Shown one piece after another: positions 1,426 to 29,175 of a stretch of DNA of 32,000 bases. The position numbers were made by a program, and so were the translations under genes. Numbering within the stretch: the stretch's first letter is position 1; each line of letters begins with the position of its first letter. The stretch is from Candidatus Saccharimonadota bacterium. GTDB lineage: Bacteria; Patescibacteriota; Gracilibacteria; UBA1369; 2-02-FULL-48-14. The notes under the pieces are model-generated. The model was given only the letters and a program-made list of their open reading frames with translations, was not told where the DNA came from and made no database searches. Where the stretch lies: positions 840,001 through 872,000 of the forward strand of contig JBAZVE010000001.1 in NCBI GenBank assembly GCA_041661045.1, in the 5' to 3' direction.

Positions 1426-1613
1426 AAATATTTCATGAATAGTAGAAAGACCGGCTTCCCTTCAGTACTTTCTTCAATCCCTTTGATGCAATCCTTTTGA
1501 GCTTCCTGTTGCCACTCGCTTTCAGGATTCCAAGCCCACGGTACGGTGAGCTTTTTGAAGTCTTCGATTTTTCCTTGGCGGATTTGGATCATGGCGAAAG
1601 TATAGCGCATCAC
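1422..1613 (-). CDS. small hypothetical protein, translationally coupled to the SET gene
   Basis: 63-aa ORF whose TGA overlaps the SET ATG (ATGA at 1425..1422). The N-terminus MIQIRQGKIEDFKKL loosely recalls GNAT N-termini, but the ORF is far too short for a GNAT fold. It could be a truncated remnant. Confidence 0.3.
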   Translation of the reverse strand: MMRYTFAMIQIRQGKIEDFKKLTVPWAWNPESEWQQEAQKDCIKGIEESTEGKPVFLLFMKYL

Positions 1614-1621
1614 TCAATAAT

Positions 1622-1653
1622 TGGCTCCCCAAGTTGGAAGCCATTAGAACTGC
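1622..1653 (-). repeat. tRNA-Asn 3'-end-like repeat, copy 1
   Basis: TGGCTCCCCAAGTTGGAAGCCATTAGAACTGC. Read on the minus strand it ends ...CCAACTTGGGGAGCCA, versus the true tRNA-Asn end CCAACCGGGGGAGCCA. Confidence 0.7.
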
Positions 1654-1727
1654 TCTTGTGGCTTCTTGCCAAGACAATGGCTTTATGTTAATGTGGCTGT
1701 ACAATTCGTTTCCTTACCTATAACTAT

Positions 1728-2423
1728 ATGTTTGAGTTTCACCTCGGTAAGGGGCTCACTCTTTCTTCGGAAGAGCTTAAGGCTCCTTTATTGCTTCTCG
1801 GTCGGTCTGGTCAGGGCAAGTCCACTTTTTTGATGCAGTTTGTTTTAGAACTCATTAAAAATAAGCAATCTGGTTTGCTTTACGATCCTTATGGAGATTT
1901 GACTTTGAGTATTCAAAAGCATCTGCAGTCGGAAGAGGCGAAGTCTTTTGTCCAAGTATTAAATCAGGATGAAGATTTACCTGGCTTTGATGGGTCTAAG
2001 TTTTTACTTGTTTCGGGGAATTTAATGGAAGAGGGAACTCGCATTACTGCAAAGAAAGCTCAAGCCTTTCTTAAGGCGTATGTATCACTCAAGTCTGATG
2101 GCTGGCTCATTGTTGATGAGGCTTTTGATTTAATGGATGAAGAATTATTTGATTTCTATGTGAATAGGGAAGGTAAACAAAAGATTCTCCTCTCTGCAGA
2201 AGAACTTGTTGGACTTTCGAAAATAGAAAGAGAACGGCTCCTCCGGGTGGTTCAGTCTATCGTTGCATATAAGACAAGAAAACTATGTGCGAAATGGTTG
2301 AGTGAATATCAACCTGTTTTCAAGACCAAAGACATGGAGGCGATTAAACAGTACCATTTTCAATACTCGATGGGTGATCAATTTGGCTACGATAGTGTTC
2401 GATGGCCCCTTGAGGATATTTGA
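1728..2423 (+). CDS. small P-loop NTPase (HerA/FtsK/VirD4-like Walker A/B core)
   Basis: 231 aa. Walker A LLGRSGQGKST and Walker B-like WLIVDEAFD. Flanked by repeat copies 1 and 2. Confidence 0.6.
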   Translation: MFEFHLGKGLTLSSEELKAPLLLLGRSGQGKSTFLMQFVLELIKNKQSGLLYDPYGDLTLSIQKHLQSEEAKSFVQVLNQDEDLPGFDGSKFLLVSGNLMEEGTRITAKKAQAFLKAYVSLKSDGWLIVDEAFDLMDEELFDFYVNREGKQKILLSAEELVGLSKIERERLLRVVQSIVAYKTRKLCAKWLSEYQPVFKTKDMEAIKQYHFQYSMGDQFGYDSVRWPLEDI

Positions 2424-2437
2424 TCTGCAAAATTAAA

Positions 2438-2469
2438 TGGCTCCCCAAGTTGGAGGCAATTAGAGCTGC
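2438..2469 (-). repeat. tRNA-Asn 3'-end-like repeat, copy 2
   Basis: TGGCTCCCCAAGTTGGAGGCAATTAGAGCTGC, preceded by CTGCAAAATTAAA (this flank is shared with copy 5). Confidence 0.75.
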
Positions 2470-2487
2470 TTGTATCTCCCTATGTAT

Positions 2488-2805
2488 TTAAGGAGTTTCT
2501 TCAAACACAGTTTCGACCTGTCTACGAGTTTCGTCTATGTAAAATCTAACTTTATAAGGCCCTTCACTTCCCCAATCTACTCCATCAATATGGGCTATTG
2601 CTTGATCAGGGTGTCTTTCTGGATGAAATCGGTCACTGGTGACGACGAAACCATATGTGTCAGCTACCTCTTTAACTTCACTTCTTACCCGACTCCACTT
2701 TACTCGACTACATCCAGAGCGGGATCTGGCAATTCTTTGGAGAGGGGCTTCAATTGGTTCTATTTCAGGCTGTATCAATTGTGAAATTCTTGTTCCTCCT
2801 AACAT
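2488..2805 (-). CDS. hypothetical protein (105 aa)
   Basis: ATG-initiated ORF with ordinary amino-acid composition. The overlapping plus-strand ORFs look like antisense shadows. Its stop lies 19 nt from repeat copy 2. Confidence 0.45.
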   Translation of the reverse strand: MLGGTRISQLIQPEIEPIEAPLQRIARSRSGCSRVKWSRVRSEVKEVADTYGFVVTSDRFHPERHPDQAIAHIDGVDWGSEGPYKVRFYIDETRRQVETVFEETP

Positions 2806-2830
2806 GATTTTGGGGGTTAAATGTTTTGTA

Positions 2831-2868
2831 AAAAAAAACCGCTGGTATTTACCGCGGTTTACCTTTTT
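2831..2868 (-). terminator. bidirectional Rho-independent terminator-like hairpin
   Basis: AAACCGC(t)GGTA..TACCGCGGTTT stem (2836-2860). An A8 run sits on the left (a U-run on the minus strand) and ACCTTTTT on the right. Confidence 0.5.
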
Positions 2869-3065
2869 GATGTTTTAGAATGATTTATTCCACAAAAAGT
2901 CTCCGCGGGTTGACTAGAAGGAGCTCTAGGAGGTTTTTGTTGAAATATGTTTCTGCTCTGCGAGTCATGGTTTGACTATTATTTGTGTGGATTATGCTAG
3001 TTCTTTACTTTTGGTGCGTCAACTATTTGTACTCGTTAACCGTGCTTGTAACCTGAAAATGATGA

Positions 3066-3097
3066 TGGCTCCCCAAGCTGGAGGCAATTCGAACTAG
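3066..3097 (-). repeat. tRNA-Asn 3'-end-like repeat, copy 3
   Basis: TGGCTCCCCAAGCTGGAGGCAATTCGAACTAG. It contains a TTCGAAC T-loop-like segment. The stop codon of the 3094..3846 ORF lies inside it. Confidence 0.75.
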
Positions 3098-3846
3098 TTT
3101 GCTAATTGGTATGTCTGAATTTCCTCGGGGAAAAGTAGCCTGATACTATCTAGACTTAAGTGGGTTAGGCCTAGGCCGTTCCAGAGATATTGAGTGATTT
3201 CTTTGCTTGGGTACTCAACATTTATTTCATCTTTCCAATCGATGATCATGTGTGGGCATTGGTCACAGGTGGGGTCGTAGCCGATCGCTAAATCTTCTTT
3301 GATTTTGTGAGTGACCTCACCATTTTCTAGCTTCAATATGAATAGCTTGGTTTCAAGTGGATAATCTTCACTATAGTTAAATGTTGCGAAACCAATATAT
3401 TTTCCATCTGGACTGTATCCAAATGGAGTCACAAAACTATCTTCATAGAATGAAATCAAATCAGTTGTTTCTTTTGTTTCGACTTTGTAATGCTGCCAAA
3501 TATTGCTGTAATTTTCGCTGAATACAATCGATTGAAGATCGGGTGAAAAGAAATAATTTGTGCTGATTGGTAACTCTGCCAGTTGCTCATTCGTCAATCG
3601 TTTTCTTTGTGTGTCATCATAAAGTGGTCCGTTCCAATACTGGTCATCGTATATTATTGATTCAATGTGTTCTAAGCTGTATCTGCCATCAAATTCTGAT
3701 TTAACTTTGTTTATTTCTTCGATTTGGCTCACTTCTTCTGTTGACTCTTGATCATTTTCAACAGAGCCTGCTGGGATTGGTTCACATGCACTAAATAGTA
3801 GTGTGGTTAAAAGAAGAAGAGATATTTTTTTCATTTGTAGGATCAT
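3094..3846 (-). CDS. lipoprotein, unknown function
   Basis: The signal peptide ends in a lipobox: MKKISLLLLTTLLFSAC. The likely true start is the internal ATG at 3834. The mature part is rich in D/E/Y/W. Confidence 0.7.
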   Translation of the reverse strand: MILQMKKISLLLLTTLLFSACEPIPAGSVENDQESTEEVSQIEEINKVKSEFDGRYSLEHIESIIYDDQYWNGPLYDDTQRKRLTNEQLAELPISTNYFFSPDLQSIVFSENYSNIWQHYKVETKETTDLISFYEDSFVTPFGYSPDGKYIGFATFNYSEDYPLETKLFILKLENGEVTHKIKEDLAIGYDPTCDQCPHMIIDWKDEINVEYPSKEITQYLWNGLGLTHLSLDSIRLLFPEEIQTYQLAN

Positions 3847-3887
3847 TAAGTGTTTACTTGGGTTCAGTGTAGCAAAAGTTCGATCAT

Positions 3888-3922
3888 TCAGCTCCCCAAA
3901 TTGGGAGTAATTAGAACTTTGC
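3888..3922 (-). repeat. tRNA-Asn 3'-end-like repeat, copy 4 (diverged)
   Basis: TCAGCTCCCCAAATTGGGAGTAATTAGAACTTTGC. It lies 7 nt from the stop of ORF 3929..4420. Confidence 0.6.
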
Positions 3923-3928
3923 TACAGG

Positions 3929-4420
3929 TTAATTGAAGGGCAAAAACTCCTCTAATTTGTAGTAGTGTTCGTCTACTTTGACACTGCCTGGAATTTCTTC
4001 GTAAAGATGAACCGTTATTCCGGCACCTATACTACTGAGAGAGTAAATGTAGAAAACTGGTCTAGAGGTCTCTGCGTAGTTTTGTGGATCGTAGTGAAGT
4101 TCAAAATCGTCGCCAAGAGTCTTTTGGAGCTCTTTGAGGAGCTCATCGTCTTCAATGTAAAGCACATCGGCACCACTCTGAAGTACCCACTCGGGAGTTT
4201 CCCCCTCGATTATGATCGAATAAACAGGTGTTGTGGCATATTCTTTCATTAGAGGGTAACTTCCTGTTTCTTCATGATATTTTTTTAATGCTTCTACATA
4301 ATAGTTGAAATCTGCGATTCTCGTCAGGTCTGCGTCAGCTTGATAATTGTCCTCAAAGGACCCACAGCCACTTATGAGTAGTAAGGTAATAAGGAAGACG
4401 GAAAGAAGAGCTGTTTTCAT
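3929..4420 (-). CDS. lipoprotein, unknown function
   Basis: Signal peptide plus lipobox MKTALLSVFLITLLLISGC. 163 aa. Confidence 0.7.
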   Translation of the reverse strand: MKTALLSVFLITLLLISGCGSFEDNYQADADLTRIADFNYYVEALKKYHEETGSYPLMKEYATTPVYSIIIEGETPEWVLQSGADVLYIEDDELLKELQKTLGDDFELHYDPQNYAETSRPVFYIYSLSSIGAGITVHLYEEIPGSVKVDEHYYKLEEFLPFN

Positions 4421-4476
4421 TAAGGCGTTTTAAACAGGGTTATTTTAGAGGATTTGGTTTGAACTGCAAAACTAAA

Positions 4477-4508
4477 TGGCTCCCGACTTGAGGCGCTACT
4501 TCGAACAC
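4477..4508 (-). repeat. tRNA-Asn 3'-end-like repeat, copy 5 (most diverged)
   Basis: TGGCTCCCGACTTGAGGCGCTACTTCGAACAC, preceded by CTGCAAAACTAAA. It retains the TGGCTCCC and TTCGAAC elements. Confidence 0.5.
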
Positions 4509-4645
4509 TGATGGTTTACCCTGGAATAGTAGAGGAGCCCCTTATTCGTGCTCTTAGGCATAGCACCTGGAAGGAGGAAACTCACCTGATGCGGAAAGAG
4601 TTAGCCGATGTCTTATAAGTCTTCCCATGTTGGGAAGGAACATAC

Positions 4646-5389
4646 TTAGGAGAGTCGTCTTTCGAGGAACTTCTTTTGATCTTCTTGAAAAACTTCCTTG
4701 CTGGCTGTTCTCCAGTTGAAGGAACTAAAAAGTTTCAAAGCGTCTTCTAAAGCGAAGCGTGCATGGTCGCTTATGATGTCTGCTTTGGTGATGTCGTGAA
4801 TGAATGTAATTTTATCACTGGGAAAATCGCATGTATAAATTGACCTAAGATGTCGATCCCTACTCCAGAAAAAGAGGGTTCTGTCTTTGACTCCAATCAG
4901 CTCAATTTCTAAGTGGAGGGAGTCGCCTAAGTAGCCAGCTTGGGCAAGTCTGGAAGTGAACAGAAATATTTCATTAAGCCTGTACAGCGTTGAAAGAACG
5001 TCCAAAAACCTATAAGGCTCTGTGCCTTCTTCGACTCCGAAATGAAAGCGTTGTCTAATCGCTTCAGCATCTTCTTCCTCAATCAGCCAATCCTCTCTGG
5101 TTCCAAAGTAGTGCACAAACTGCCCACTTAGAAAATACCGCCAGTATTCATATTCGGATCCGCGTTCCGAGCTACATTTTGAATGTATGCTATCTTCGCT
5201 TGCCGCGGATGTGTCTCGATCCACATGAGGGTAATCCCATCCACGTAAGTCTACCTTGTTTTCATCAATTACTTTTTTAGCTACATCAAGTGAGCTTATC
5301 AGGTTAGATTCAAACTTATTTGGGCGAACTAGCACCTTCCAGTAGCCTTTGCTTTTAATTGTATTTAGCAACTCATTTGTATCGATCAT
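4646..5389 (-). CDS. hypothetical protein, partner of the AlbA_2-domain protein
   Basis: 247-aa ORF. Its ATG overlaps the stop of the upstream gene by 4 nt (5386..5389). No motif I recognise. Confidence 0.6.
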   Translation of the reverse strand: MIDTNELLNTIKSKGYWKVLVRPNKFESNLISSLDVAKKVIDENKVDLRGWDYPHVDRDTSAASEDSIHSKCSSERGSEYEYWRYFLSGQFVHYFGTREDWLIEEEDAEAIRQRFHFGVEEGTEPYRFLDVLSTLYRLNEIFLFTSRLAQAGYLGDSLHLEIELIGVKDRTLFFWSRDRHLRSIYTCDFPSDKITFIHDITKADIISDHARFALEDALKLFSSFNWRTASKEVFQEDQKKFLERRLS

Positions 5390-6036
5390 AGGTCTTCAAG
5401 TTGTTGATTAAAATGATCCGCATCCGCCACTGTTTGAGTGGCAGCATCAAGTAGTTTCCAGGGGATCTTCGACACAAGCTGATTTTGATGTCTATCGAGT
5501 AGGAGGTCAACAAAATCCCTCCATTCTCTATGCCCCGATATTTCCCTTGATTCTACTGGAGATTTAGAACGTATGTAAACAGCACCCTCCCGCAAGGCTA
5601 AGTTCCCTAGATGTGCACCACCTGCTGGATTTATTGATACGGTTTTTGTGCACACTATTGGTAATGCGTTTGCTTCTTGAACCTGAATTACAACGAAGAG
5701 TTTCTCCGTGCCATCTGCTTCAGTAACTTGTCCTTTTTCGAGAGTGAAATCTATTGAAGGCTGTGCATGATTGTTCATGTATCTGCCGATTGTGTCATAT
5801 TCATAAGAATTTACCTCTGTCTGTGATAAACCGACTGGATTGAAAGTTCCATCCTCAACGCCAATTATTATGACTCCTCCATCTCTACTGTTTGACATAG
5901 CCATCATCGCTTTCGCAATGAAGTTGTTCGTTTGTCCATTGCCCCAGGTTAGATTTGCCTTGAATTCTACATTAACTCGTTCTTGACCAAGGTAAATAAA
6001 CTGCTTTAGGTCGTCATTGAATTCGGACAGGGGCAT
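5386..6036 (-). CDS. AlbA_2 / Schlafen-type putative DNA-binding domain protein
   Basis: 216 aa. ERVNVEFKANL and NSRDGGVIIIGVEDG resemble the E..EFK and GG.I.IGV.D signatures of the AlbA_2 (PF04326-type) domain. Confidence 0.6.
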   Translation of the reverse strand: MPLSEFNDDLKQFIYLGQERVNVEFKANLTWGNGQTNNFIAKAMMAMSNSRDGGVIIIGVEDGTFNPVGLSQTEVNSYEYDTIGRYMNNHAQPSIDFTLEKGQVTEADGTEKLFVVIQVQEANALPIVCTKTVSINPAGGAHLGNLALREGAVYIRSKSPVESREISGHREWRDFVDLLLDRHQNQLVSKIPWKLLDAATQTVADADHFNQQLEDL

Positions 6037-6147
6037 TTTAGAATAAGTAACCTTGGCATTGTAGCCAAACTGTTCCAGGCTGACAAATACATGTTGTGAC
6101 GCTTAAGTAATCTAGAATTGCTGTAGTTTCCAAGGTGCCTGCAAGAC

Positions 6148-8298
6148 TTAGACTTTATTTAAGCAGCATTTTTTGTATTTTTTTCCACTATTACAAAAAC
6201 AAGCATCATTTCTCCCGATTTTTTTTAATTTCTTGTCTTGTACTGTCATAGGCTTACCTGTTTTAAGTGCAATTTTTTCTACTTTTTCCAAATTTTCGTC
6301 ATGCATCCATTTTTCTTTGCTAAAAACGAGACTATCCACCATCCGTTTACTTCCTTCGTAGCTTCCAATCCCAAGCCATAGATCAGCTTTTGTTTTGTAC
6401 TTTCTCGCCATTGCATGAGTTAAAATATGTTTATCTAAAGTGCCTATGCTATCTGGCATACAAATGAAACTCACGCCGCTCTTCCCCTCTTCAAAGATCA
6501 TTGTCACATCATGTATCTGAGGATCGATCCTTGTTTTTATCTTCACGGAATTTATAGCTTCAATTAGTCGATCCGCGCCATCTCCTGCAAGGTCGTATAA
6601 GTAAAAGAGGGCATCGGTAAAGCCAGCAATTTGTGAGTTTTTAACCTCTGCTATAAGTTTCTCAAAATCCTTGTTATACCAAGAATGGTGTAATCGTTCT
6701 GTTGCTTCGGTTATGGGTTGGTGTCCTTTTAAGGCAGGGAAGTTGGCATCTATGAGTTGAGCCAAACTTTCATCTGCAAATATCATATCTGCATCGGGGT
6801 CTCTGAATAGTTTTCTTTTAAGATGCCATCCCAATAGAGCAATTTCAGAAGTACCTCTGAAGTATTCTGAAAGATCTATCCTTTGTCTAAGATAGTAGAG
6901 AAACTCAAATGGATCTTGCAGGTAGAAGCATAATATATCTAGATCAAAAATACTTATGGCAACTGGATAAGGCAGTTCATCACTCTTCTGTAAATATACG
7001 TCTACTTGATGAGTGATGGCGGGATAGGTATCCGATGTTAAGCAAATAATATAAGCATCTTCGATCGGTTCTTTTAGACTTAATTCATTACCATCTTCAT
7101 CTATAAGTTTATTTGTCCCTGAGAGTAGTGTTTCTCTGCAAACTACACCTTGATCATATGCATCTTGAATGGCCTTTTGAAAATCTTTTTTTAATGTTTC
7201 TTTATCGCCCTTTTTTGAAAGCTCCGTCAGTCTCTTTGCTTTAGATTGTATGATTATTGATTTGTTCCCTGTAAGAACCAGGATATCAATATCTGAAATT
7301 GTTTCTTTCTTACTCTTTTTGACTTTTACATTTCTATAAATATTTTCTACTCCAAAAATCTTTTCTAACCGTTCTATAGCTATTTCCTCATTGGTTGAAC
7401 CCCTGTGTTCAAAGGACTTGTCCTTGTAAACCTTGTCTTCTGCCATCCAGTAAAAGGGGCTTTCGTATATTGATTGAGCTAAACTAAAACTTATTGGCAA
7501 GAAAAACTTGTCATCATCTAGCCTAATTATGGGATGTGACTCCATCACATTGTACTGTCCGATACTTAAAAATCCTTTGTTTTCAATCCCTGGTTTAATA
7601 GAAAAATTTTCTAGAAAGGCGGTCACCGTTTTCTCGTCAAAGTCTTTTAACAAGTCAGTTCGATTGAAAGTGAAAATATTTAGAATGAAATGACAATACT
7701 CCTCAAAGGAAGCTGGTTTTTTAAGCCCTAACTTTTTTTGTTCTGAAAGTTTTTTCAATTTTTGAGATATGAGAGCCATCTTTTTCATTTCAATGCCGCG
7801 ATTTTTTTTAAGCCATAGTTCATCGTATTTATACTTTTTCGGTGCGAATTCCCAATACTCAAAATCGTATGCACCTGAATTTCCATAGAAAATTGCTTCA
7901 GTCATTATCTCTCCAGATCCAAATTTTTCTTTCATCAGATCCTTTTTCTCTTTATCGGTCATCTGCCTAGTTTTTTCAATATCCTCTTTTAGAATCTCTG
8001 GGATATAGCTATTGAGTTCAGTGTGAAGATCACGGAAGGCCTCATATATTCTTTGTGCCTGTTTAGCTGTTTCTTCTTTGGTTATAAGATTTACTTTTAT
8101 AGGATGTTTGATAAATAATCCAAGGAGGAAGTTAAGCTCCTGAAAACTTAGCCGTTCCCTCCAGTCGATGTCTGCCGCTTCATTGGGATCAAAGAAAAGG
8201 TCGTTCTTTAACAAAATCGCTAGGGTATGAATAAACCCTGGCTCTTTAGTGATAGCCTCAAGTTTACCGATCAACTCTGTTTTCTTGTCCACGCCCAT
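6148..8298 (-). CDS. large SEC-C-motif protein with a PD-(D/E)xK/NERD-like core
   Basis: 716 aa. The C-terminal GRNDACFCNSGKKYKKCC matches the SecA-type SEC-C zinc motif. The central DIDILVLTGNKSIIIQSKAK resembles a D...(E/Q)xK nuclease motif. Confidence 0.75.
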   Translation of the reverse strand: MGVDKKTELIGKLEAITKEPGFIHTLAILLKNDLFFDPNEAADIDWRERLSFQELNFLLGLFIKHPIKVNLITKEETAKQAQRIYEAFRDLHTELNSYIPEILKEDIEKTRQMTDKEKKDLMKEKFGSGEIMTEAIFYGNSGAYDFEYWEFAPKKYKYDELWLKKNRGIEMKKMALISQKLKKLSEQKKLGLKKPASFEEYCHFILNIFTFNRTDLLKDFDEKTVTAFLENFSIKPGIENKGFLSIGQYNVMESHPIIRLDDDKFFLPISFSLAQSIYESPFYWMAEDKVYKDKSFEHRGSTNEEIAIERLEKIFGVENIYRNVKVKKSKKETISDIDILVLTGNKSIIIQSKAKRLTELSKKGDKETLKKDFQKAIQDAYDQGVVCRETLLSGTNKLIDEDGNELSLKEPIEDAYIICLTSDTYPAITHQVDVYLQKSDELPYPVAISIFDLDILCFYLQDPFEFLYYLRQRIDLSEYFRGTSEIALLGWHLKRKLFRDPDADMIFADESLAQLIDANFPALKGHQPITEATERLHHSWYNKDFEKLIAEVKNSQIAGFTDALFYLYDLAGDGADRLIEAINSVKIKTRIDPQIHDVTMIFEEGKSGVSFICMPDSIGTLDKHILTHAMARKYKTKADLWLGIGSYEGSKRMVDSLVFSKEKWMHDENLEKVEKIALKTGKPMTVQDKKLKKIGRNDACFCNSGKKYKKCCLNKV

Positions 8299-8379
8299 TT
8301 ATCGTTGATAACTTGCCCTAGTAAACCACGCATTACACTAAAAGTAGAGGAGATGAATGTTGATGCTGGAAGGCGTATT

Positions 8380-8643
8380 TTACTTATGAATTCCTATGCC
8401 TACTTGCTCTTTTGTCTCTATACCCAGCTTTTTATAAAGCTGTTCTGTACCTTTCCACCATACGATAGCTAGAAAACATACCAAAGCGGACAATAATCCT
8501 TCTTTGACCTCCAAACGTATAAATGATCCAATGCTCCCAGCAAGAGGTAGCCACCAAAATAACAAGCAAAATAGCCCAACTACTCCTATCAGTTTGATAA
8601 GCATTTCGTAGCACCATCCCTCAAATTTAGTTTGTTTCTCCAT
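8380..8643 (-). CDS. small membrane protein (two predicted TM helices)
   Basis: 87 aa with hydrophobic stretches LIGVVGLFCLLFWWLPLAG and LLSALVCFLAIVWW. Divergent from the XRE gene. Confidence 0.5.
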   Translation of the reverse strand: MEKQTKFEGWCYEMLIKLIGVVGLFCLLFWWLPLAGSIGSFIRLEVKEGLLSALVCFLAIVWWKGTEQLYKKLGIETKEQVGIGIHK

Positions 8644-8678
8644 AACGGTGAATTGCCCTTAGTAAACACCAACGATCG

Positions 8679-8933
8679 TTGGTTCTCAATAGAAGGTGTT
8701 CCAAGGAAGATGATCTTGTGGCAAAAGACATCGTAATTCAATTCGGGAAGCATATAAGAGAACTGCGTCTTGAAAGGGAGTTTACTCAAGAAGAGTTGGC
8801 TAGTCGTTCAAAGATCAGTTTGAAATATATTCAAAAGATTGAAGGTAGAAACCCACCAAATCTTGGGCTCGTGGCACTACAAAAATTAGCAAATGGATTT
8901 GATGTGCCACTTTGGAGACTACTTAAATTCTAA
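8679..8933 (+). CDS. XRE-family helix-turn-helix transcriptional regulator
   Basis: FGKHIRELRLEREFTQEELASRSKISLKYIQKIEGRNPP is a classic HTH_3/XRE pattern. A GTG at 8718 preceded by AAGGAAG is a plausible true start, giving about 71 aa. Confidence 0.8.
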   Translation: MVLNRRCSKEDDLVAKDIVIQFGKHIRELRLEREFTQEELASRSKISLKYIQKIEGRNPPNLGLVALQKLANGFDVPLWRLLKF

Positions 8934-9010
8934 AGGGCTAATACCTCTTGCTGGGCGCCTTTTTTATAGTTTCGTATCGTTAAAGTAACGGACACGAAAA
9001 CAACATTTAT

Positions 9011-9039
9011 TTGACATGTGTCGGATATTTTTATATAGG
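9011..9039 (+). promoter_or_regulatory. sigma70-like promoter candidate
   Basis: TTGACA (9011-9016), followed by either N15-TATATA or N17-TATAGG. It points toward the 58-aa ORF and the recombinase. Confidence 0.3.
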
Positions 9040-9323
9040 GTTAATGTTCTTTAGGTGGGAACCTCCATGGGATATGGACTGGACCACCGTATGAACTGGT
9101 CACGGACCAGCGCGGTTGTACGCAAAGCGATTCGCTTGATAGGCTTATACCTCGGTATGAGCTGAATGTTGCATATCTATGTACTGCTAAAGAAGACGAG
9201 TAAGGGCCAGCATCCCCTGGTTCCTGAAAGAAATCCCGAAGTACATAGGTCTGCCCAACTTACGCAGTACAGCTAGCGACTGAACCCACTAACTAAACCT
9301 TATAAGTTTATGTTAGTGATTTT

Positions 9324-9500
9324 ATGTCGCGGAATATAAGTAAAATACAAAAAAGAGGCTTTGAGCCTTATCGAGATAAGAAGGATTATTTGGCTGATCT
9401 ATCTAAAGTCTTTCGCAAAGACTATGGTGTGGAGTTTTCTGAAAAAGAATTGGCTGAAATTGGAGGTAACCTAGATGCTTTTCTAGGTGTTTTCTGCTGA
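9324..9500 (+). CDS. small protein (58 aa) immediately upstream of the serine recombinase
   Basis: ATG..TGA ORF below the track cutoff: MSRNISKIQKRGFEPYRDKKDYLADLSKVFRKDYGVEFSEKELAEIGGNLDAFLGVFC. It shares a motif with the N-terminus of ORF 29356..29943. Confidence 0.4.
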   Translation: MSRNISKIQKRGFEPYRDKKDYLADLSKVFRKDYGVEFSEKELAEIGGNLDAFLGVFC

Positions 9501-9530
9501 TTTTTCAGCTAAAATATAGTCATAAACCTT

Positions 9531-11288
9531 ATGCCTCTCCGTACTGCCGTTTACATCCGAAGATCATCGGAAGACCACGATGAAAAACAGATCCATTCCA
9601 TTGAAAGACAGGAAGGAGATTTAAGTAGGTATTTTGAAAAAGAAACTAAATTAGAGTCAGATTTGTATAAACTGGAGTCCGATCCTGCAAAGAATTTTTA
9701 TCGAGAAGATGCCTCGGCAAAAAAACCAGGTAGGAAACAGTTCAATCAAATGTTAGAAGAACTTCGAAGGAATAAATATGATGTCCTTTTGTGCACTGAT
9801 CTCACGCGTCTTTCCAGAAATGCCATTGATAACGGAGCTTTAGTTCAGCTTTTGGAAGATGGCCATCTCAAAGAGATTCGTACTCTAGATAAGGTCTTTA
9901 CGACCATTCCCACGGATAAATTCACTTTATCTCTGTTTTTAGCGGTCTCCAAGTATGAGAACGATCAAAGAGCGCTCAATACAATTTCAGGCCTCCAGAA
10001 GCAAAAGTGGGATGGAAAGACGACCCATCGTGCACCTATGGGGTATGTCAATAAAGGGGAGAGAAAAGGTGATCATTGGGTAGAAAAGGATGGTGATAAT
10101 TTTGATAAGGCTCGTCAAATTTGGGACCTTTTCTTTATGGGGAACTATACCATTGATGCCTTAAGAGATCATGCTCGTGATATAGGCCTTACTTACATTG
10201 CTCATGGCCGTAGGGACTTCCCAAAAAGCCAGACGATTCGCTATATGCTTTCCAATCCTTACTATATGGCGAAAGTTCTTTGGAGTGATAAACGGTCAGG
10301 TGTGGAGGAATGGAGGGAAGGGCAGCACCCTATGATGGTTACTCAAGAAGAGTTTGATAAAGCTCAAATGATTCTGGAGAAAAATGGTTATAAGCATGCC
10401 AAACTTAATAAGGCCGTGGATATTGTCGAAATTATCAAAACCTTGGCGGTGAGTGGCATTTATACTCGCAAAAACGCCAAAGGGGAGATTGCTCGTGCTC
10501 CTATGATTTATGAAGAAAAGTTCCGCTATAAATGCACCCATTGTGGGCATCGCTACTTCTCTGTTGCTAAAAATCCATGTCCCGAGTGTTCCACCATTGT
10601 AAGCAATGCAACTCCTGTAGAGCATATGCAGAGGTTTTCCCACCTCTTGGACGCCAATACCAAGAAGGACTCGATTAAATTTGATCTTGTCCTTGATGCG
10701 CTCAAGGATGCATTAAGCACCCTTTATATTTCCCCTGCGTTGTATGATGTCTTGAGGAAGCGCCTCTATACTTTGTGGGTTGATAAGAACAAAAACCAGG
10801 CCAAATCAAGAAAGGAGATCAAAGCCAAGATTGAAAAATTAGAGGATGAGAGGGATAAGCTATACAGGAAGCAGAACCGACCTGAAGGTCCTCCACCTGG
10901 TATTCAGTTTGCTATTGATAATGTTCTTAAAGAGGTCGATGAAAAGAAAAGTAGTCTTGATAAGCTGGCTGACGAAATGGAAGAGGATTTCGAAAAAGCA
11001 TGGCAACGGCTGCAAGTCATCAATGACGCCAAGGAGATTTTAAGTCCTCAAATGGACTTCGAACCAAAAAAAGGACTGCTTTTATCCCTTACTTCGAACC
11101 TCGTTATTTACAAAGATAAAATTGAGGTCGAATGGCAAAAACCCTTTGATGAACTGGCTAAAATGGGGATTGCTAAAAAGCAGGGAAGTGCTGGGCCTAC
11201 TAAATGTTTGGGTACAAGTCTAAATGGCTCCCCCGGTTGGATTCGAACCAACGACCCAGCGATTAACAGTCGCTTGCTCTACCACTGA
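9531..11288 (+). CDS. large serine recombinase (integrase)
   Basis: 585 aa. The N-terminal resolvase catalytic region has VYIRRSSEDHDEKQIHSIERQ and LTRLSRN. It also has a recombinase domain, a zinc ribbon (CTHCGHRYFSVAKNPCPEC) and a K/E-rich coiled-coil tail. The last 21 codons run antisense through tRNA-Asn. Confidence 0.9.
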   Translation: MPLRTAVYIRRSSEDHDEKQIHSIERQEGDLSRYFEKETKLESDLYKLESDPAKNFYREDASAKKPGRKQFNQMLEELRRNKYDVLLCTDLTRLSRNAIDNGALVQLLEDGHLKEIRTLDKVFTTIPTDKFTLSLFLAVSKYENDQRALNTISGLQKQKWDGKTTHRAPMGYVNKGERKGDHWVEKDGDNFDKARQIWDLFFMGNYTIDALRDHARDIGLTYIAHGRRDFPKSQTIRYMLSNPYYMAKVLWSDKRSGVEEWREGQHPMMVTQEEFDKAQMILEKNGYKHAKLNKAVDIVEIIKTLAVSGIYTRKNAKGEIARAPMIYEEKFRYKCTHCGHRYFSVAKNPCPECSTIVSNATPVEHMQRFSHLLDANTKKDSIKFDLVLDALKDALSTLYISPALYDVLRKRLYTLWVDKNKNQAKSRKEIKAKIEKLEDERDKLYRKQNRPEGPPPGIQFAIDNVLKEVDEKKSSLDKLADEMEEDFEKAWQRLQVINDAKEILSPQMDFEPKKGLLLSLTSNLVIYKDKIEVEWQKPFDELAKMGIAKKQGSAGPTKCLGTSLNGSPGWIRTNDPAINSRLLYH

Positions 11289-11299
11289 GCTACAGGGGA
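11225..11299 (-). tRNA. tRNA-Asn (anticodon GUU)
   Basis: Manual cloverleaf on the minus strand: TCCCCTG-TA-GCTC-AGTGGTA-GAGC-A-AGCGA-CTGTTAA-TCGCT-GGGTC-GTTGG-TTCGAAT-CCAAC-CGGGGGA-G-CCA. CCA is encoded. Confidence 0.9.
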
Positions 11300-14197: not shown

Positions 14198-14271
14198 TGG
14201 GGATTAGCCAAGTGGTAAGGCAGCGGGTTCTGGTCCCGCCACCGGGGGTTCGAATCCCTCATCCCCAGCCA
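14198..14271 (+). tRNA. tRNA-Gln (anticodon CUG)
   Basis: Manual cloverleaf: TGGGGAT-TA-GCC..GGC-A-GCGGG-TTCTGGT-CCCGC-CACC-GGGGG-TTCGAAT-CCCTC-ATCCCCA-G-CCA. The U1-A72 pair is typical of bacterial tRNA-Gln. Confidence 0.9.
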
Positions 14272-14342
14272 ATACGTGCGTGATTTAGGCCTATGACCCG
14301 AGTAGCTATGGCGATAGATACTCGAATTTTCGTTAATAGACT

Positions 14343-14369
14343 GAAAAATCACCCCTGTTTTAGGGTGAT
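14343..14369 (-). terminator. Rho-independent terminator candidate downstream of the recombinase
   Basis: ATCACCC(14348-14354)/GGGTGAT(14363-14369), a 7-bp stem followed on the minus strand by a short T run. Confidence 0.45.
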
Positions 14370-14395
14370 CTTTCCCCATGAGTCCAGCAAAGGGT

Positions 14396-15775
14396 TCAAT
14401 TCCCGTTCCCCTGAGGCGCAGTGGCATTAGGAGAAATCTGCACTTGTAGTGGGGTGATTGATTCATTTTCTGCATTTTTGAACCAAACTTTCCCTTCTTT
14501 CAAAAAGAGTTGCCCCGCCAAAGTTGCCAGAAAATCCCTTTTCTCTACTGGAGTTCCGCTTTTCAGGATGTAGTGGATGTATTCATGTTCCGTGATTTTT
14601 TTCGCCCCTTCGCCCATCGTAATTTCATGCAGTTCATTCATTTTTTGGACTTCCCGAGTTATTTTCTTATGTATCCGTAACTCCTTGCTTTTGAACTGAT
14701 CTACCAGCTTGGCGATGCTCTCAATAAGCTCCTCTTCACGGATGTATTTTTCATCGCACCGCTTGGTGCCTCCGTATTTTGTGCATTTGTAGTAGGTGTA
14801 GCTTTTTCCATGCCTGTTGATATGAGTTTCGCCACAAACCCCAGACTTACAGGCTCCGCACTTGAACAATTTACTGAAATAGAAGCTTTTGCTGCCCCAC
14901 TTCTTTCTTTCAAAGGTTTTAATGGCTTTCTGTGCGGCTTCCCACTGTTCTTTTGTAATGATCGGCTCATGAGTTCCTTCGTACCAGTTACCGCTTCCTT
15001 CTGGGTATTCGAACTCACCGTAGTAAAATTGATCTTTGAAGATTCTATAGGTCATGCTGAGTGTTACTTTTTTACCCTTCCTTGTTCTGAACCCTTCGTC
15101 CGTAAGGAAGTCGTTTATTTGTCTTCCGCTAAAACCGTTGATGGTCAGGTAGTCAAACATCTTTTTAATGAACGGGGCACGTTCAGGATCTATGATTATT
15201 TTGCTTTCCGCTGAAAGTTTTTCTGGATCTCGATACAATTTATATCCTAAAGGTTGGATTCCAGGTCTTTTCCCTCGTTCGCATTTTGCTCGAAGCCCAC
15301 GCTTCACGTTTTTCCCTCGATTGTCGTTCTCTAGCTTTGCCTGGCTACACAAGATCATGAGTAGAAACTTCTCGTTGGGTGAATTTATGAAGGTTTGTCC
15401 GTGAGTTCTAATGCTGACGAGCTTGCCTTCGTCCATAAGGTCTACAATATCGCCTAAATCGCCAGCATTACGGCTTAGGCGGTCTGGAGCCCATGTTAAA
15501 ATGGCATTGAATTTGCCTTCGTCCAGCTCCTTTAGCATTTCGTTAAACTTTGTTCTTACGCCCTTTGCCTTGGCACTTTTGCTCTCCTGTTTTACCTCAA
15601 CAATCGTGAGGTTTTCCTGCTCTGCGATCTGCATCATTTCATGAATCTGTGAGTCTATGCTCATCGCCTGTTTTTCGTCCGATTCCGAGGACTTTCTGGC
15701 GTAAAGGCAGTATTTCAGGGGTTCATCTAAATCTGTCATGGTAGGTGGGTTAAAGCCTACCCACATAGATGACAC
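14396..15775 (-). CDS. large serine recombinase (integrase), paralogous to 9531..11288
   Basis: LYARKSSESDEKQAMSIDSQ and APDRLSRNAGD form the resolvase catalytic domain. It also has a Cys-rich zinc ribbon (CGACKSGVCGETH...YYKCTKYGGTKRC). It aligns by eye with the other recombinase (Y.R.SSE..EKQ..SI..Q; F(N)(Q/E)ML(E/K)EL; (T/D)RLSRNA). The start may be the ATG at 15739. Confidence 0.9.
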   Translation of the reverse strand: MSSMWVGFNPPTMTDLDEPLKYCLYARKSSESDEKQAMSIDSQIHEMMQIAEQENLTIVEVKQESKSAKAKGVRTKFNEMLKELDEGKFNAILTWAPDRLSRNAGDLGDIVDLMDEGKLVSIRTHGQTFINSPNEKFLLMILCSQAKLENDNRGKNVKRGLRAKCERGKRPGIQPLGYKLYRDPEKLSAESKIIIDPERAPFIKKMFDYLTINGFSGRQINDFLTDEGFRTRKGKKVTLSMTYRIFKDQFYYGEFEYPEGSGNWYEGTHEPIITKEQWEAAQKAIKTFERKKWGSKSFYFSKLFKCGACKSGVCGETHINRHGKSYTYYKCTKYGGTKRCDEKYIREEELIESIAKLVDQFKSKELRIHKKITREVQKMNELHEITMGEGAKKITEHEYIHYILKSGTPVEKRDFLATLAGQLFLKEGKVWFKNAENESITPLQVQISPNATAPQGNGN

Positions 15776-15805
15776 AATGGATCGTGATAGCTAGAGCGAA
15801 TACTC

Positions 15806-17911: not shown

Positions 17912-17913
17912 TG

Positions 17914-20900: not shown

Positions 20901-21006
20901 ACCTTTGAAAGGCTGGCCTATAAGCATGCTCACGCGCATCTCCAGACTGGAGTATTTTCTGTATCTCAACAAGATACTCGTGGATTATTTTATTTGAGTC
21001 AGCCAT
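17914..21006 (-). CDS. type IIG-like fused restriction endonuclease / N6-adenine DNA methyltransferase with a type ISP/MmeI-like C-terminal specificity region
   Basis: 1030 aa. The N-terminus has a PD-x13-ExK motif (APDFLFKSGATPVAYAECKD). MTase motif I (VLDPAVGTGTFL) precedes motif IV (VLGNPPYSGE), the gamma-class order. The C-terminal FSIGGYQPLQKWLKDRRGR pattern is as seen in MmeI/type ISP/YeeA-like enzymes. Confidence 0.85.
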   Translation of the reverse strand: MADSNKIIHEYLVEIQKILQSGDAREHAYRPAFQRLIQGLKPEIQVINEPAYTGGNAPDFLFKSGATPVAYAECKDVTVDIANSEVQKQANRYVAAFGRILLTNYFDFQILSEEGEVVAISIADKNGDQIIARQSEFERFANIIQDYITPFHRTIRSARKLAEIMASKARILRDNALASLTENPDSDIYAQYKTFKEVLIRELSEQEFADMYAQTLVYGLFVARYYDSTIKTFSRHEAQDLLPASNPLLKKFFGHVAGTDYDPKIAWLVDSLVEAYLSANVYELMHKEFATKQKDPVLHFYETFLAEYDKGLRKNRGVYYTPEPVVSFIVRSVDEILKSKFNLPKGLADTSMIDHQEKLQGEDARRKDGIKRKKNQIHRVQVLDPAVGTGTFLNEVINVIFKSFKGQEGLWPSYVKDHLLPRIHGFELMMASYTMAHLKLGVTLKELGYSGDERLSVWLTNSLEESVHEVPNLFMSQWLTEESHEASKIKSEMPIMVVLGNPPYSGESFNKNYSGHDVYKVEPGGLVKLQEKNSKWINDDYVKFIHFAENQIQKTGEGIVSFITPHGYLDNPTFRGMRWHLMETFDEIYILDLHGNLNKKERAPDGGKDGNVFGIRTGTAILFAVKNQKSVNKKAEVYHADFFGRQDLKYELLDGNSWAEMKWVRINPKAPNLYFIPFNDEVKEKYDEGFSVTELFPINSVGIATFRDDLTVHFDKEGLEKVAADFRYMEKKDLIVKYSLYETRDWRIDVAVESVKSDEGSISKFCYRPFDTRYTLLTKSSKGFIAYPRYETMSHLIDKDNVALVFGRQGKTANIEEWDVAFISDSPTDLNIFRRGGGQTFPLYLYSQGSERVTNINQNIFNKIVGIAGQVAPLEILDYVYGVLHAPPYRKRYLDFLKIDFPKIPYPKNKADFHMFAKIGSELRELHLLKSKLLDQLSTTFQITGNDIVEDGYPKFKDKNIFMNDKQFFGNISKEAWGFSIGGYQPLQKWLKDRRGRSLSREDIEHYQRMASAIHETIQLMEKMNKTGSF

Positions 21007-21081
21007 GTTGGTTTAGTTTGCTCCTGTACTTTAGATCAAATCATCTGGAATTTAAAGCGCATCAAGTCTTGCTACACAACA

Positions 21082-23666: not shown

Positions 23667-23678
23667 ATTTTTTGATTT

Positions 23679-29161: not shown

Positions 29162-29175
29162 ACTTTTGGATTAGT

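What the first reader, a model, noticed from the sequence alone, without database searches (positions are those of the whole stretch)
1622..11299. One-gene cassettes punctuated by a repeat derived from the 3' end of tRNA-Asn, ending at a large serine recombinase that abuts the real tRNA
Five same-orientation copies are present (1622, 2438, 3066, 3888, 4477), with consensus TGGCTCCCCAAGTTGGAGGCAATTAGARCTGC. Read in tRNA sense they end CCAACTTGGGGAGCCA, versus CCAACCGGGGGAGCCA for the genuine tRNA-Asn 3' end at 11225-11240 (14 of 16 identical).

Copies 1-3 share the same TT-for-CG difference. They are therefore copies of one another, or of a foreign att site, rather than independently decayed relics of the resident tRNA.

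An upstream flank CTGCAAAAyTAAA is conserved in copies 2 and 5, and TAAA also precedes the real tRNA end.

The intervals are about 0.55-0.85 kb and each holds exactly one ORF (P-loop NTPase, a 105-aa protein, two lipoproteins). The repeat sits 0-19 nt from the stop of the three minus-strand ORFs, and one stop codon lies inside the repeat.

This ORF-plus-3'-site logic resembles integron cassettes. However, there is no tyrosine IntI here, and the only recombinase is a large serine recombinase whose ORF runs into the tRNA. Serine integrases do not normally leave long direct repeats, so the array is unexpected either way.

Alternative explanation: serial tandem integrations at tRNA-Asn followed by severe decay.
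Basis: partly seen in the sequence, partly recalled or inferred. Interest (0 to 1): 0.8.

Follow-up and report, generated by a model that had tools for sequence, protein, structure and literature searches.

The report
Serine-recombinase gene-cassette array at tRNA-Asn
Downstream of the tRNA-Asn gene of this small candidate-phyla-radiation (CPR; Peribacteria-type) genome lies a row of one-gene cassettes separated by a conserved recombination site, built around a large serine recombinase rather than the tyrosine integrase of integrons, and related genomes carry different, reshuffled cassettes at the same spot.

Summary
Four full copies (1622, 2438, 3066, 3888) and one variant copy (4477) of a tRNA-Asn-3'-end-like site lie in one orientation. 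A sixth, degenerate copy lies 2.8 kb left of the window.

The same site occurs in same-strand arrays (median spacing 824 bp) in at least 12 other CPR contigs. Wherever a tRNA is in view, the array runs from the 3' end of tRNA-Asn.

All 36 cassette sites tabulated have TGGCTCCCC, then exactly 13 nt, then a T-N-M-GAAC heptamer. The real tRNA has 8 nt before its T-loop TTCGAAC. This +5 offset is what distinguishes attP from attB half-sites of large serine recombinases (LSRs).

Copy 5 is the far junction of the 6.8-kb island that carries the LSR. It encodes the detached last 47 codons of the LSR gene, as do four related islands, so attP lies inside the LSR gene.

The cassette sites match the attP arm of a sister LSR subgroup.

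Homologous cassettes occur in swapped order (B-C versus C-B) and with different neighbours, and homology breaks at the site. No cassette holds an LSR fragment.

Best reading: tandem accretion at tRNA-Asn of one autonomous LSR island plus LSR-less mini-elements moved in trans. Verdict: a new variant of a known kind; the mobility mechanism is inferred.

The parts
1618..1656 (+). Site 1 (type 1): TGGCTCCCC 1622-1630, 13-nt spacer 1631-1643, heptamer TTAGAAC 1644-1650.
   Evidence: nhmmer E = 5e-14.
1631..2446 (+). Cassette c1 (816 bp): one ORF, 1728-2423 (+), a P-loop NTPase. Weak nSTAND/mad8-like hits, below the Pfam cut-off.
2425..2472 (+). Site 2 (type 1): left arm CTGCAAAATTAAA, TGGCTCCCC 2438-2446, heptamer TTAGAGC 2460-2466.
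2447..3074 (-). Cassette c2 (628 bp): 105-aa ORF 2488-2805 (-), no family hit.
3053..3100 (+). Site 3 (type 1): TGGCTCCCC 3066-3074, heptamer TTCGAAC 3088-3094. The stop codon of the next ORF (3094-3096) overlaps its last base.
3075..3897 (-). Cassette c3 (823 bp): 250-aa lipoprotein-like ORF 3094-3846 (-). It is an ORFan: the only hit in the 5.8-billion-protein search is itself.
3888..3920 (+). Site 4: TCAGCTCCCC, spacer AAATTGGGAGTAA, heptamer TTAGAAC 3911-3917. Its left side looks like a ~45-nt deletion that joins a conserved upstream piece (GTTCGATCATYCAGCT) to the site.
   Evidence: compare L008 873.
3898..4484 (-). Cassette c4 (587 bp): 163-aa lipoprotein-like ORF 3929-4420 (-).
4464..4506 (+). 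Site 5: the distal junction (attL-like) of the recombinase island. Cassette-type left arm CTGCAAAACTAAATGGCTCCC, joined to the island's own arm GACTTGAGGCGCTAC-TTCGAAC (14 nt after the 9-mer TGGCTCCCG).
   Evidence: (78% identical to the L018 junction).
4475..4618 (+). Detached 3' tail of the recombinase gene: 47 codons (NGSRLEALLRTLMVYPGIVEEPLIRALRHSTWKEETHLMRKELADVL) plus stop. It would be in frame with 9531-11233 across a circular junction.
   Evidence: Homologous tails lie at the distal junctions of L018 (58% identity, E = 1e-15), L019, L020 and L022. In L021 the tail is contiguous with the recombinase.
4485..11233 (+). Autonomous recombinase island (6.75 kb). Cargo: 247-aa ORF 4646-5389; Schlafen/AlbA_2 protein 5386-6036; NERD + SEC-C protein 6148-8298; 87-aa membrane ORF 8380-8643; HTH regulator 8679-8933.
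9324..9500 (+). 58-aa ORF just upstream of the recombinase, conserved at the same place in four other islands. Candidate directionality or accessory factor (inferred).
   Evidence: tblastn to L018, L019, L021, L022; E = 4e-11 to 6e-6; gene tables.
9531..11288 (+). Large serine recombinase LSR1 (585 aa as integrated). Its last 21 codons (11225-11288) are antisense tRNA-Asn.
11221..11247 (+). tRNA-proximal junction (attR-like): TAAA-TGGCTCCCC-CGGTTGGA-TTCGAAC. The heptamer lies 8 nt after the 9-mer, that is, at attB-type spacing.
   Evidence: (family D2).
11225..11299 (-). tRNA-Asn (GTT), intact. It is the attachment target.
   Evidence: Rfam 71.3 bits.

Best explanation
The 3' end of tRNA-Asn is the chromosomal attachment site (attB) of a CPR-specific family of large serine recombinases (LSRs).

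**How an element integrates.**
- Each element carries a site whose left part copies the last bases of the tRNA plus a short A-rich trailer (AAA-TGGCTCCCC).
- Its right part is an attP-type half-site: 13-14 nt followed by a T-N-M-GAAC motif.
- Strand exchange falls within AAATGGCTCCCC, most likely in the CCCC run.
- The tRNA therefore keeps its body and receives a new, identical 3' tip.
- The element's right arm is left at the far junction.
- Every insertion regenerates the same target next to the tRNA, so elements pile up, oldest farthest away.

**What the window holds.**
- The newest element is an autonomous 6.75-kb island (4485-11233). Its recombinase gene contains attP and is therefore split on integration, with its last 47 codons at 4475-4618.
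- Beyond it lie at least four, probably more, recombinase-less one-gene mini-elements (c1-c4). Each is bounded by the attP-type site of a sister recombinase subgroup.
- These mini-elements behave as discrete cassettes. They are excised and re-inserted, or acquired, by a recombinase supplied in trans. This generates variable, reshuffled arrays, functionally like integron cassettes or cis-mobilizable elements (CIMEs).

**Shown:** the site architecture, the arrays, the tRNA link, the split recombinase gene, and cassettes in different order and context.

**Inferred:** the exact crossover position, which recombinase acts on copies 1-4, circular intermediates, and the role of the 58-aa ORF.
For: 1. 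**Repeat and chance.** The copies are found where described, with 0 matches expected by chance.

2. **Arrays elsewhere.**
   - The same site occurs in 4 genome loci and 9 metagenome loci (two of the latter duplicate genome loci), all CPR apart from one contig binned as Pseudobdellovibrionaceae.
   - Within a locus all copies lie on one strand. Spacing is 120-2558 bp, median 824, with the 6.7-kb interval of the recombinase island as the single larger value.

3. **Link to tRNA-Asn.**
   - In every locus where a tRNA is visible (window, L001, L011, L023/L024, L026), the array starts at the 3' end of tRNA-Asn in tRNA orientation.
   - These loci share the neighbouring Trm11-like methyltransferase gene.

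4. **Half-site offset.**
   - All 36 cassette sites have 13 nt between TGGCTCCCC and the heptamer. tRNA-Asn has 8.
   - A 5-bp shift of the zinc-ribbon-domain motif between attP and attB half-sites is the published hallmark of large serine recombinases (PMC3783163, read).

5. **The recombinase family targets this tRNA.**
   - Most of the 29 homologues end in antisense tRNA-Asn codons.
   - This is confirmed on DNA in L018, L020, L022, L025, L028 and L029.

6. **attP inside the recombinase gene.** The ~45-aa tail is encoded at the distal junction of five islands, including window 4475-4615.

7. **Tandem accretion seen directly.** In L018 a second recombinase gene ends at the junction with the next island.

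8. **Cassette arms match a sister subgroup.**
   - Read in frame TGG-CTC-CCC, 35 of 36 right arms give WLPx[LFVI][ED][AE][IVL]RT....
   - This matches the tails of homologues P0013 and P0012. P0015 and P0016 end in tRNA-Asn antisense in that same frame.

9. **Mobility of recombinase-less units.**
   - Cassettes B (93% identical) and C (76%) are in order C-B towards the tRNA in L001, but B-C in L004. Homology breaks at TGGCTCCCC.
   - Further shared cassettes have different neighbours: L010/L017, L008/L010, L002/L013.

10. **No recombinase debris.** tblastn finds no recombinase fragments in any cassette array. The one exception lies at a recombinase-island junction, L019 2722-2808.

11. **Site conservation.** Sites are 90-100% identical between genomes whose adjacent core gene is about 70% identical.
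Against: - No circular cassette, empty site or within-population polymorphism was observed. Mobility is inferred from comparison of different genomes.
- The recombinase in the window has 14-nt spacing and a different reading frame across the site. The cognate enzyme of copies 1-4 is therefore not in the window.
- No recombinase is seen in the arrays of L001, L011 and L023 within the DNA held.
- Left arms are conserved only over about 13 nt. That is little for a full recombinase half-site.
- In the standard model, a hybrid site (attP-type half joined to an attB-type half) is auto-inhibited (PMC3783163). Repeated insertion at the tRNA-proximal junction would need relaxed site choice, as for Ccr recombinases.
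- One junction (L019 2799) does carry a recombinase remnant, so decay does occur.
- Homologous recombination between the 35-45-nt repeats could account for some of the reshuffling.
Confidence: 0.65

Rival explanations
1. **In-place decay only.** Each interval is the stump of a full-length recombinase island that integrated at tRNA-Asn and then lost its recombinase and most cargo by deletion. The stumps do not move.
For: - Tandem full-length islands exist (L018).
- One junction keeps the last ~29 recombinase codons without the gene (L019 2722-2808).
- CPR genomes are reductive (own knowledge).
- 'Decay then accretion' is the textbook route to cis-mobilizable elements (PMC5704250).
Against: - Among the cassette junctions examined, none other than L019 2722-2808 retains recombinase codons, although the gene abuts the site.
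- Deletions would have to end within a few bases of TGGCTCCCC every time.
- The same recombinase-less cassettes, with the same boundaries, occur in opposite order in L001 and L004, and with different neighbours elsewhere. This needs movement of units that were already recombinase-less.
- Sizes are tightly clustered (median 824 bp).
Confidence: 0.2
2. **A tyrosine-recombinase system.** An integron, Xer/dif-module-like or tRNA-integrase system acts on the 11-7-11 imperfect dyad TAAATGGCTCC-CCAAGTT-GGAGGCAATTA. The serine recombinase is only a neighbour.
For: - The type-1 site has a 9/11 dyad around a 7-nt centre (read), a layout typical of tyrosine-recombinase core sites.
- Acinetobacter pdif modules and integrons form similar one-gene arrays (own knowledge).
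- L026 11483 is a plain 19-nt duplicate of the tRNA end, a junction typical of tyrosine integrases.
Against: - No Phage_integrase hit in any window ORF tested, nor in the gene tables of array loci L023 and L026.
- The dyad is absent from site types 2 and 3.
- Single-strand folding is no better than for shuffled sequence (z -1.0 to +1.4).
- The attC cores RYYYAAC/GTTRRRY are not matched.
- The 13-versus-8 offset, the recombinase family reading into this tRNA, and the match to the recombinase tail coding all point to the serine enzyme.
Confidence: 0.05
3. **A generic dispersed repeat.** The repeat is a REP/MITE, terminator or other regulatory element derived from a tRNA, with no role in recombination.
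For: - It lies between genes and often directly after stop codons.
- The type-1 form has a short GC-rich stem followed by T-rich sequence in tRNA sense (read).
Against: - In about 250 kb of related sequence held here, every copy lies in a one-strand array. The arrays start at tRNA-Asn wherever a tRNA is visible.
- In the genome scan each positive genome gave a single stretch.
- None of the 4,227 Rfam families matches.
- There is no significant folding.
- ORFs flank the site in both orientations.
- Homology between shared cassettes breaks exactly at the site.
Confidence: 0.03

Closest known systems
Tandem accretion of integrative elements with cis-mobilizable elements (CIMEs), e.g. ICESt1/ICESt3 at fda in Streptococcus thermophilus (review PMC5704250)
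   Same: - Elements lacking their own integrase keep att sites.
- They sit in tandem at the 3' end of a conserved gene.
- They can be moved by the integrase of a neighbour.
   Different: - Those systems use tyrosine integrases and usually hold one or two decayed elements of several kb.
- Here the enzyme is a large serine recombinase and the target is a tRNA.
- Arrays reach 6-7 units of about 0.6-1.2 kb with one gene each. They are found across many CPR genomes.
SCCmec / SCC composite islands with CcrAB or CcrC large serine recombinases at the 3' end of rlmH in staphylococci (own knowledge; a related case in PMC10581047 appeared and was not read)
   Same: - A large serine recombinase inserts elements at the 3' end of a conserved gene.
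- The element mimics the gene's end, so direct repeats bound each unit.
- Recombinase-less units accumulate in tandem.
   Different: - The recombinase lineage differs: LSR1's best match to a solved structure is only 26-31 bits.
- The target is a tRNA.
- attP lies inside the recombinase gene.
- Units are single genes rather than elements of 3-60 kb.
Integrons and integrase-less attC clusters (CALINs)
   Same: - Arrays of compact, mostly one-gene cassettes, each with one recombination site next to the ORF end.
- Cargo rich in toxin-antitoxin pairs, small enzymes and ORFans.
- Insertion next to a fixed platform, with variable content between relatives.
   Different: - No IntI tyrosine recombinase.
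- Sites are conserved in sequence, not in structure, and do not fold.
- The platform is a tRNA gene.
- Cassettes appear to carry their own promoters, and some are inverted.
Tycheposons of Prochlorococcus (bioRxiv 10.1101/2020.12.28.424599)
   Same: - Elements integrate at tRNA genes.
- Successive insertions push older ones into the island.
- Partial tRNA copies and remnants mark old junctions.
- 27 of 937 elements carry a large serine recombinase.
   Different: - Mostly tyrosine recombinases, and elements carry replication modules.
- The recombinase-less material is described as degenerated remnants and scattered partial tRNAs, not as a regular array of one-gene units bounded by a conserved site.
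SSV1-type integrase genes of archaeal viruses, which are partitioned on integration (own knowledge; review PMC8371274 was listed and was not read)
   Same: attP lies inside the integrase gene. Integration into a tRNA gene therefore splits the gene, and excision restores it.
   Different: - Those are tyrosine recombinases, split roughly in the middle.
- Here only the last ~45 codons of a serine recombinase are detached. They are replaced by 21 antisense-tRNA codons, so the integrated gene probably still yields a near-full-length protein.

Membership tests
Large serine recombinase (serine integrase) element | N-terminal resolvase-type catalytic domain with a serine nucleophile | tested here: met
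   Pfam Resolvase 71.8 bits against a cut-off of 23.3. R10, S12 and R68 are invariant in 22 homologues.
Large serine recombinase (serine integrase) element | C-terminal recombinase domain plus a zinc-ribbon domain with a coiled-coil insert | tested here: met
   - Pfam Recombinase 26.4 bits against a cut-off of 21.1.
- C335, C338, C350 and C353 are invariant.
- PF13408 itself is not hit for LSR1, although it is for LSR2.
- The coiled coil was judged only by reading the heptad-rich stretch, roughly residues 410-495; it was not modelled.
Large serine recombinase (serine integrase) element | attP and attB of 40-50 bp, in which the outer (zinc-ribbon) motif sits 5 bp closer to the centre in attB than in attP | tested here: met
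   The heptamer T-N-M-GAAC lies 13 nt after TGGCTCCCC in 36 of 36 cassette sites, and 14 nt in 3 recombinase-island arms. It lies 8 nt after it in tRNA-Asn. The rule is taken from PMC3783163. Assigning the heptamer to the zinc-ribbon domain is an inference.
Large serine recombinase (serine integrase) element | Crossover at a 2-bp central dinucleotide; directionality set by a separate factor | not testable with these tools
   Homology breakpoints place the exchange within AAATGGCTCCCC. The conserved 58-aa ORF is only a candidate factor.
Integron | intI tyrosine recombinase next to the array | tested here: not met
   No Phage_integrase hit in the window ORFs scanned. The only recombinases found are two serine enzymes.
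Integron | attC sites: variable in sequence, conserved in structure, imperfect palindromes with RYYYAAC/GTTRRRY cores that fold as single strands | tested here: not met
   - Sites are 90-100% conserved in sequence across genomes.
- Folding z-scores range from -1.0 to +1.4.
- GTTGGAG and GTTGGAA do not fit GTTRRRY (read).
Integron | Compact mobile cassettes inserted at a fixed site; arrays vary between relatives | tested here: met
   This is a functional resemblance only.
Cis-mobilizable element (CIME) / accretion array | Elements without integration genes, still bounded by att sites, in tandem with an integrase-bearing element at one target gene | tested here: met
   c1-c4 lack any recombinase and are bounded by sites. 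The recombinase island lies next to them at tRNA-Asn.
Cis-mobilizable element (CIME) / accretion array | Mobilisation by the neighbour's integrase | not testable with these tools
   Only indirect evidence: the same cassettes occur in a different order and context in other genomes.
SCC (staphylococcal cassette chromosome) | Ccr-family recombinase and an rlmH target | tested here: not met
   The target is tRNA-Asn. The homologues found are CPR proteins only. No Ccr structure was among the solved-structure matches.

The most novel reading that the evidence does not exclude
Peribacteria and allied CPR bacteria have a serine-recombinase counterpart of the integron.

- The 3' end of tRNA-Asn serves as a self-regenerating docking site.
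- Single-gene cassettes, each carrying one ~40-bp attP-type site, are cut out as circles and inserted there.
- The recombinase acts in trans, and its own gene is switched between two C-terminal forms by integration.

This would be an independent invention of cassette-based gene capture, with a different enzyme class and double-stranded sites.
Probability: 0.4. Interest if true: 0.85.

Novelty: new variant of a known kind. Interest (0 to 1): 0.7.

Why it matters
**Gene flow in CPR bacteria.** CPR bacteria have tiny genomes and few recognised routes of gene exchange. This locus appears to be a dedicated, recurrent gene-acquisition site, seen in at least seven syntenic relatives and in further CPR contigs. 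It carries toxin-antitoxin pairs, defence-like genes, lipoproteins and ORFans.

**Use of serine recombinases.** It shows a large serine recombinase family that targets a tRNA gene and carries attP inside its own coding sequence. It also suggests that a cassette-array architecture like that of integrons can be built on serine recombinases.

**Practical value.** The family offers natural recombinases with a defined, highly conserved, short target (a tRNA end), together with many natural attP variants. These are directly testable as genome-engineering tools.

Tried and rejected
- **Rfam.** The whole window at gathering thresholds gives only the two tRNAs, and no family for the repeat.
- **Virus, phage and plasmid collections.** The viral-contig scan for the site gave 0 hits. 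Phage and plasmid BLAST of 1600-4520 gave no match. There is no sign that the array is phage- or plasmid-borne.
- **Same design at tRNA-Gln.** No copy of the tRNA-Gln 3' end lies downstream of the second recombinase.
- **attC-like folded sites.** Rejected: no folding signal, and the dyad is missing from site types 2 and 3.
- **Recombinase pseudogenes inside cassettes.** tblastn with 12 recombinases found none, apart from L019 2722-2808.
- **The window's own cassettes in other arrays.** tblastn of c1-c4 proteins against all loci gave nothing. The big-database search for c3 returned only itself.
- **Exact-protein look-up of P0151.** This failed. The HAD gene look-up worked instead and gave the sequence left of the window.
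- **SET/HAD genes as chromosomal flank.** Rejected. A further site lies beyond them. In L004 the SET homologue has an array on its other side.
- **A symmetric outer motif in the left arms.** Only about 13 nt are conserved there. Apparent GTTCAAA or CTGCAAA motifs occur in subsets with variable spacing, so I make no claim.
- **Literature.** Nine full-text searches found no description of this system. The Peribacteria genome paper does not mention it.

Full report
**1. What is in the window**

*Genes and composition.*
- tRNA-Asn (GTT) lies at 11225-11299 on the minus strand, and tRNA-Gln at 14198-14271 on the plus strand.
- Between them is a 3-kb core of higher G+C (0.47-0.52). Both sides are lower (0.34-0.45).
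- ORF 9531-11288 is a large serine recombinase, LSR1. It has Pfam Resolvase and Recombinase domains above cut-off. Ser12 and four zinc-ribbon cysteines are invariant in 22 homologues.
- Its last 21 codons are the antisense of the tRNA.
- A second large serine recombinase (14396-15775, minus strand) faces the 3' end of tRNA-Gln.

*The repeat.*
- It is present as described at 1622, 2438, 3066 and 3888, with none expected by chance.
- The copy at 4477 shares only the left part.
- Spacings are 816, 628, 823 and 588 bp, each with one ORF.

**2. The repeat is a conserved site that forms arrays in many CPR genomes**

*Where it is found.*
- Pattern scans found it in four genomes: Peribacteria, Gracilibacteria, 'Patescibacteria', and one contig binned as Pseudobdellovibrionaceae. 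They also found it in nine metagenome contigs, two of which duplicate genome loci. It was not found in viral contigs.
- A profile search and an anchored search show several copies per locus, always on one strand.
- Spacing runs from 120 to 2558 bp, apart from the 6.7-kb interval that holds the recombinase island. The median is 824 bp over 36 intervals.

*The tRNA-Asn link.*
- The source genome is a 1.3-Mb contig labelled Candidatus Gracilibacteria.
- I sampled the same locus in relatives through the neighbouring Trm11-like methyltransferase gene. tRNA-Asn is followed by such arrays in L001, L011, L023/L024 and L026.
- The cassettes differ between these loci: Fic, HicAB, Zeta and ParE toxin systems, an acetyltransferase, hydrolases and unknowns. 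No recombinase is in view.
- So the array is tied to tRNA-Asn, and its content varies between relatives.

*Extent in this genome.*
- L027 is identical to the window over 10.9 kb. It extends 9.7 kb to the left and holds one more, degenerate, site next to a ParE pair.
- Beyond that the G+C rises. The array is therefore at least 14 kb, and the SET/HAD genes lie inside it.

**3. Anatomy of the site**

- Anchored on TGGCTCCCC, all 36 cassette sites have exactly 13 nt and then a heptamer T-N-M-GAAC. Variants are TTAGAAC, TTCGAAC, TCCGAAC, TGCGAAC and others.
- The real tRNA has 8 nt and then its T-loop TTCGAAC.
- Conservation runs from -4 to about +35. Upstream, only AAA is conserved.
- Several sequence types share this frame, so the architecture is conserved rather than one sequence.
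- In large serine recombinases the outer motif, bound by the zinc-ribbon domain, lies 5 bp closer to the centre in attB than in attP (PMC3783163).
- The 13-versus-8 spacing fits that rule. It does so if the crossover lies in the CCCC run, which is also where homology between shared cassettes breaks. This placement is an inference.
Those bases belong to the element's arm and were never part of a working tRNA.
- The sites do not fold as single strands.

**4. The recombinase family and its own islands**

*Target.*
- LSR1 has 29 homologues of 37-54% identity; every source name or record title seen for them is CPR.
- Most end in antisense tRNA-Asn codons. This is confirmed on DNA in six further loci.

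*Split gene.*
- Read across a circular junction (11233 joined to 4485), the LSR1 frame continues for 47 codons, at 4475-4615.
- Homologous tails lie at the far junction of the islands in L018 (58% identity), L019, L020 and L022. In L021 the tail is contiguous with the gene.
- Hence attP lies inside the recombinase gene, and integration detaches its tail. Copy 5 is the far junction of a 6.75-kb island (4485-11233).
- These island arms have 14-nt spacing.

*Further features.*
- A 58-aa ORF just upstream of the recombinase is conserved in four other islands.
- In L018 another recombinase gene ends exactly at the junction with the next island, which shows tandem accretion directly.

**5. Whose sites are copies 1-4?**

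- Read in frame TGG-CTC-CCC, 35 of 36 cassette right arms give WLPKLEAIRTALL... or close variants.
- This matches the tails of homologues P0013 (NWLPILERMRTDWAQDIIELG) and P0012. One arm aligns over 24 residues at 46% identity.
- P0015 and P0016 end WLPRLDSNQRP, which is tRNA-Asn antisense in that frame.
- The cassette sites therefore correspond to the attP arm of a sister subgroup of the same family, not to LSR1 itself. That subgroup is not encoded in the window.

**6. Are the cassettes mobile units or stumps?**

- Cassettes B and C of L001 recur in L004, at 93% and 76% identity, with the same boundaries. Their order is opposite, and homology stops at TGGCTCCCC.
- Three further cassette pairs have different neighbours.
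- No cassette array contains a recombinase fragment, although the gene abuts the site in autonomous islands. The single remnant found lies at an island junction in L019.
- Sites are far better conserved than adjacent core genes.
- These points favour recombinase-less units that are inserted and exchanged as such. This matches the cis-mobilizable elements of the accretion model (PMC5704250), here reduced to single genes.
- Direct evidence of excision is lacking. Homologous recombination between repeats could contribute.

**7. Comparison with known systems, and novelty**

- It works like an integron in outcome. It fails integron membership on the enzyme and on the site type.
- In mechanism it is closest to three known systems:
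  - accretion arrays with cis-mobilizable elements;
  - tycheposon islands at tRNA genes.
- The split recombinase gene recalls SSV1-type integrases.
- I found no description of this system in nine literature searches, nor in the Peribacteria genome paper.
- I rate it a new variant of a known kind.

**8. Confidence by step**

| Claim | Confidence |
|---|---|
| The repeats are junctions of site-specific recombination by this recombinase family at tRNA-Asn | about 0.85-0.9 |
| The recombinase-less cassettes move as units | about 0.7 |
| A 'WLP-frame' recombinase supplied in trans is responsible | about 0.55 |

Noticed in passing
window 14198-29950: A second large serine recombinase (14396-15775, minus strand) ends 125 bp past the 3' end of tRNA-Gln. 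It is 72% identical to a recombinase next to tRNA-Gln in L023. Its island carries a HerA-like ATPase, a type IIG restriction-modification enzyme and a Cas4-like nuclease. No tRNA-Gln-derived repeats follow it.
   Followed up: partly
window 23911-27808: A phage-like block inside the tRNA-Gln island: a 493-aa ORF I took to be terminase-like from reading its sequence (no Pfam hit), a small HTH protein, and two N6/N4 DNA methyltransferases, one with a ParB N-terminal domain.
   Followed up: partly
window 8935-9323: An ORF-free stretch upstream of the 58-aa/recombinase operon. The 9040-9320 segment folds much better than shuffles (z = -3.7). It matches no Rfam family and has no homologue in the other loci. 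Possibly a structured RNA or regulatory region of the island.
   Followed up: partly
window 9324-9500: A 58-aa ORF with no Pfam hit is conserved directly upstream of the recombinase gene in L018, L019, L021 and L022. It is a candidate directionality or accessory factor.
   Followed up: partly
window 4475-4618 with 9531-11288: Integration replaces the recombinase's native 47-residue tail with 21 residues encoded by antisense tRNA. The enzyme therefore exists in two C-terminal forms, depending on whether the element is integrated. Whether this affects activity or direction is unknown.
   Followed up: partly
L019 11698-12288: In this relative the tRNA-Asn gene is interrupted by a group I intron (Rfam RF00028, 48.2 bits, E = 4e-11, just under the gathering score of 50). 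ARAGORN does not call the tRNA. The recombinase still reads into its 3' half.
   Followed up: partly
L026 11483: A plain 19-nt duplicate of the tRNA-Asn 3' end lies 120 nt downstream of the tRNA, without the 13-nt/heptamer arm. This junction type is expected from a different integrase with a T-loop crossover.
   Followed up: no
window 3854-3890; L007 2120-2165, 3260-3307; L008 873-940; L004 7434-7496: Many cassette ORFs are preceded by TTTTGCTATACT, which resembles an extended -10 promoter element. In a subset there is also an inverted tRNA-like piece, GTTCGATCATCCARCTTGG. Window site 4 appears to be a ~45-nt deletion that fuses that piece to the site.
   Followed up: no
L027 10640-14300 (left of the window start); L004 73-1586: The SET-domain and HAD genes at the left edge of the window lie between two sites. 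The SET homologue in L004 has further cassettes on its far side. A 30%-identical HAD homologue is a cassette in L007.
   Followed up: yes
window 2822-2855: A GC-stem plus T-run, terminator-like on the minus strand, lies inside cassette c2 upstream of its ORF. About 210 nt of c2 (2856-3065) have no ORF of 50 aa or more.
   Followed up: no
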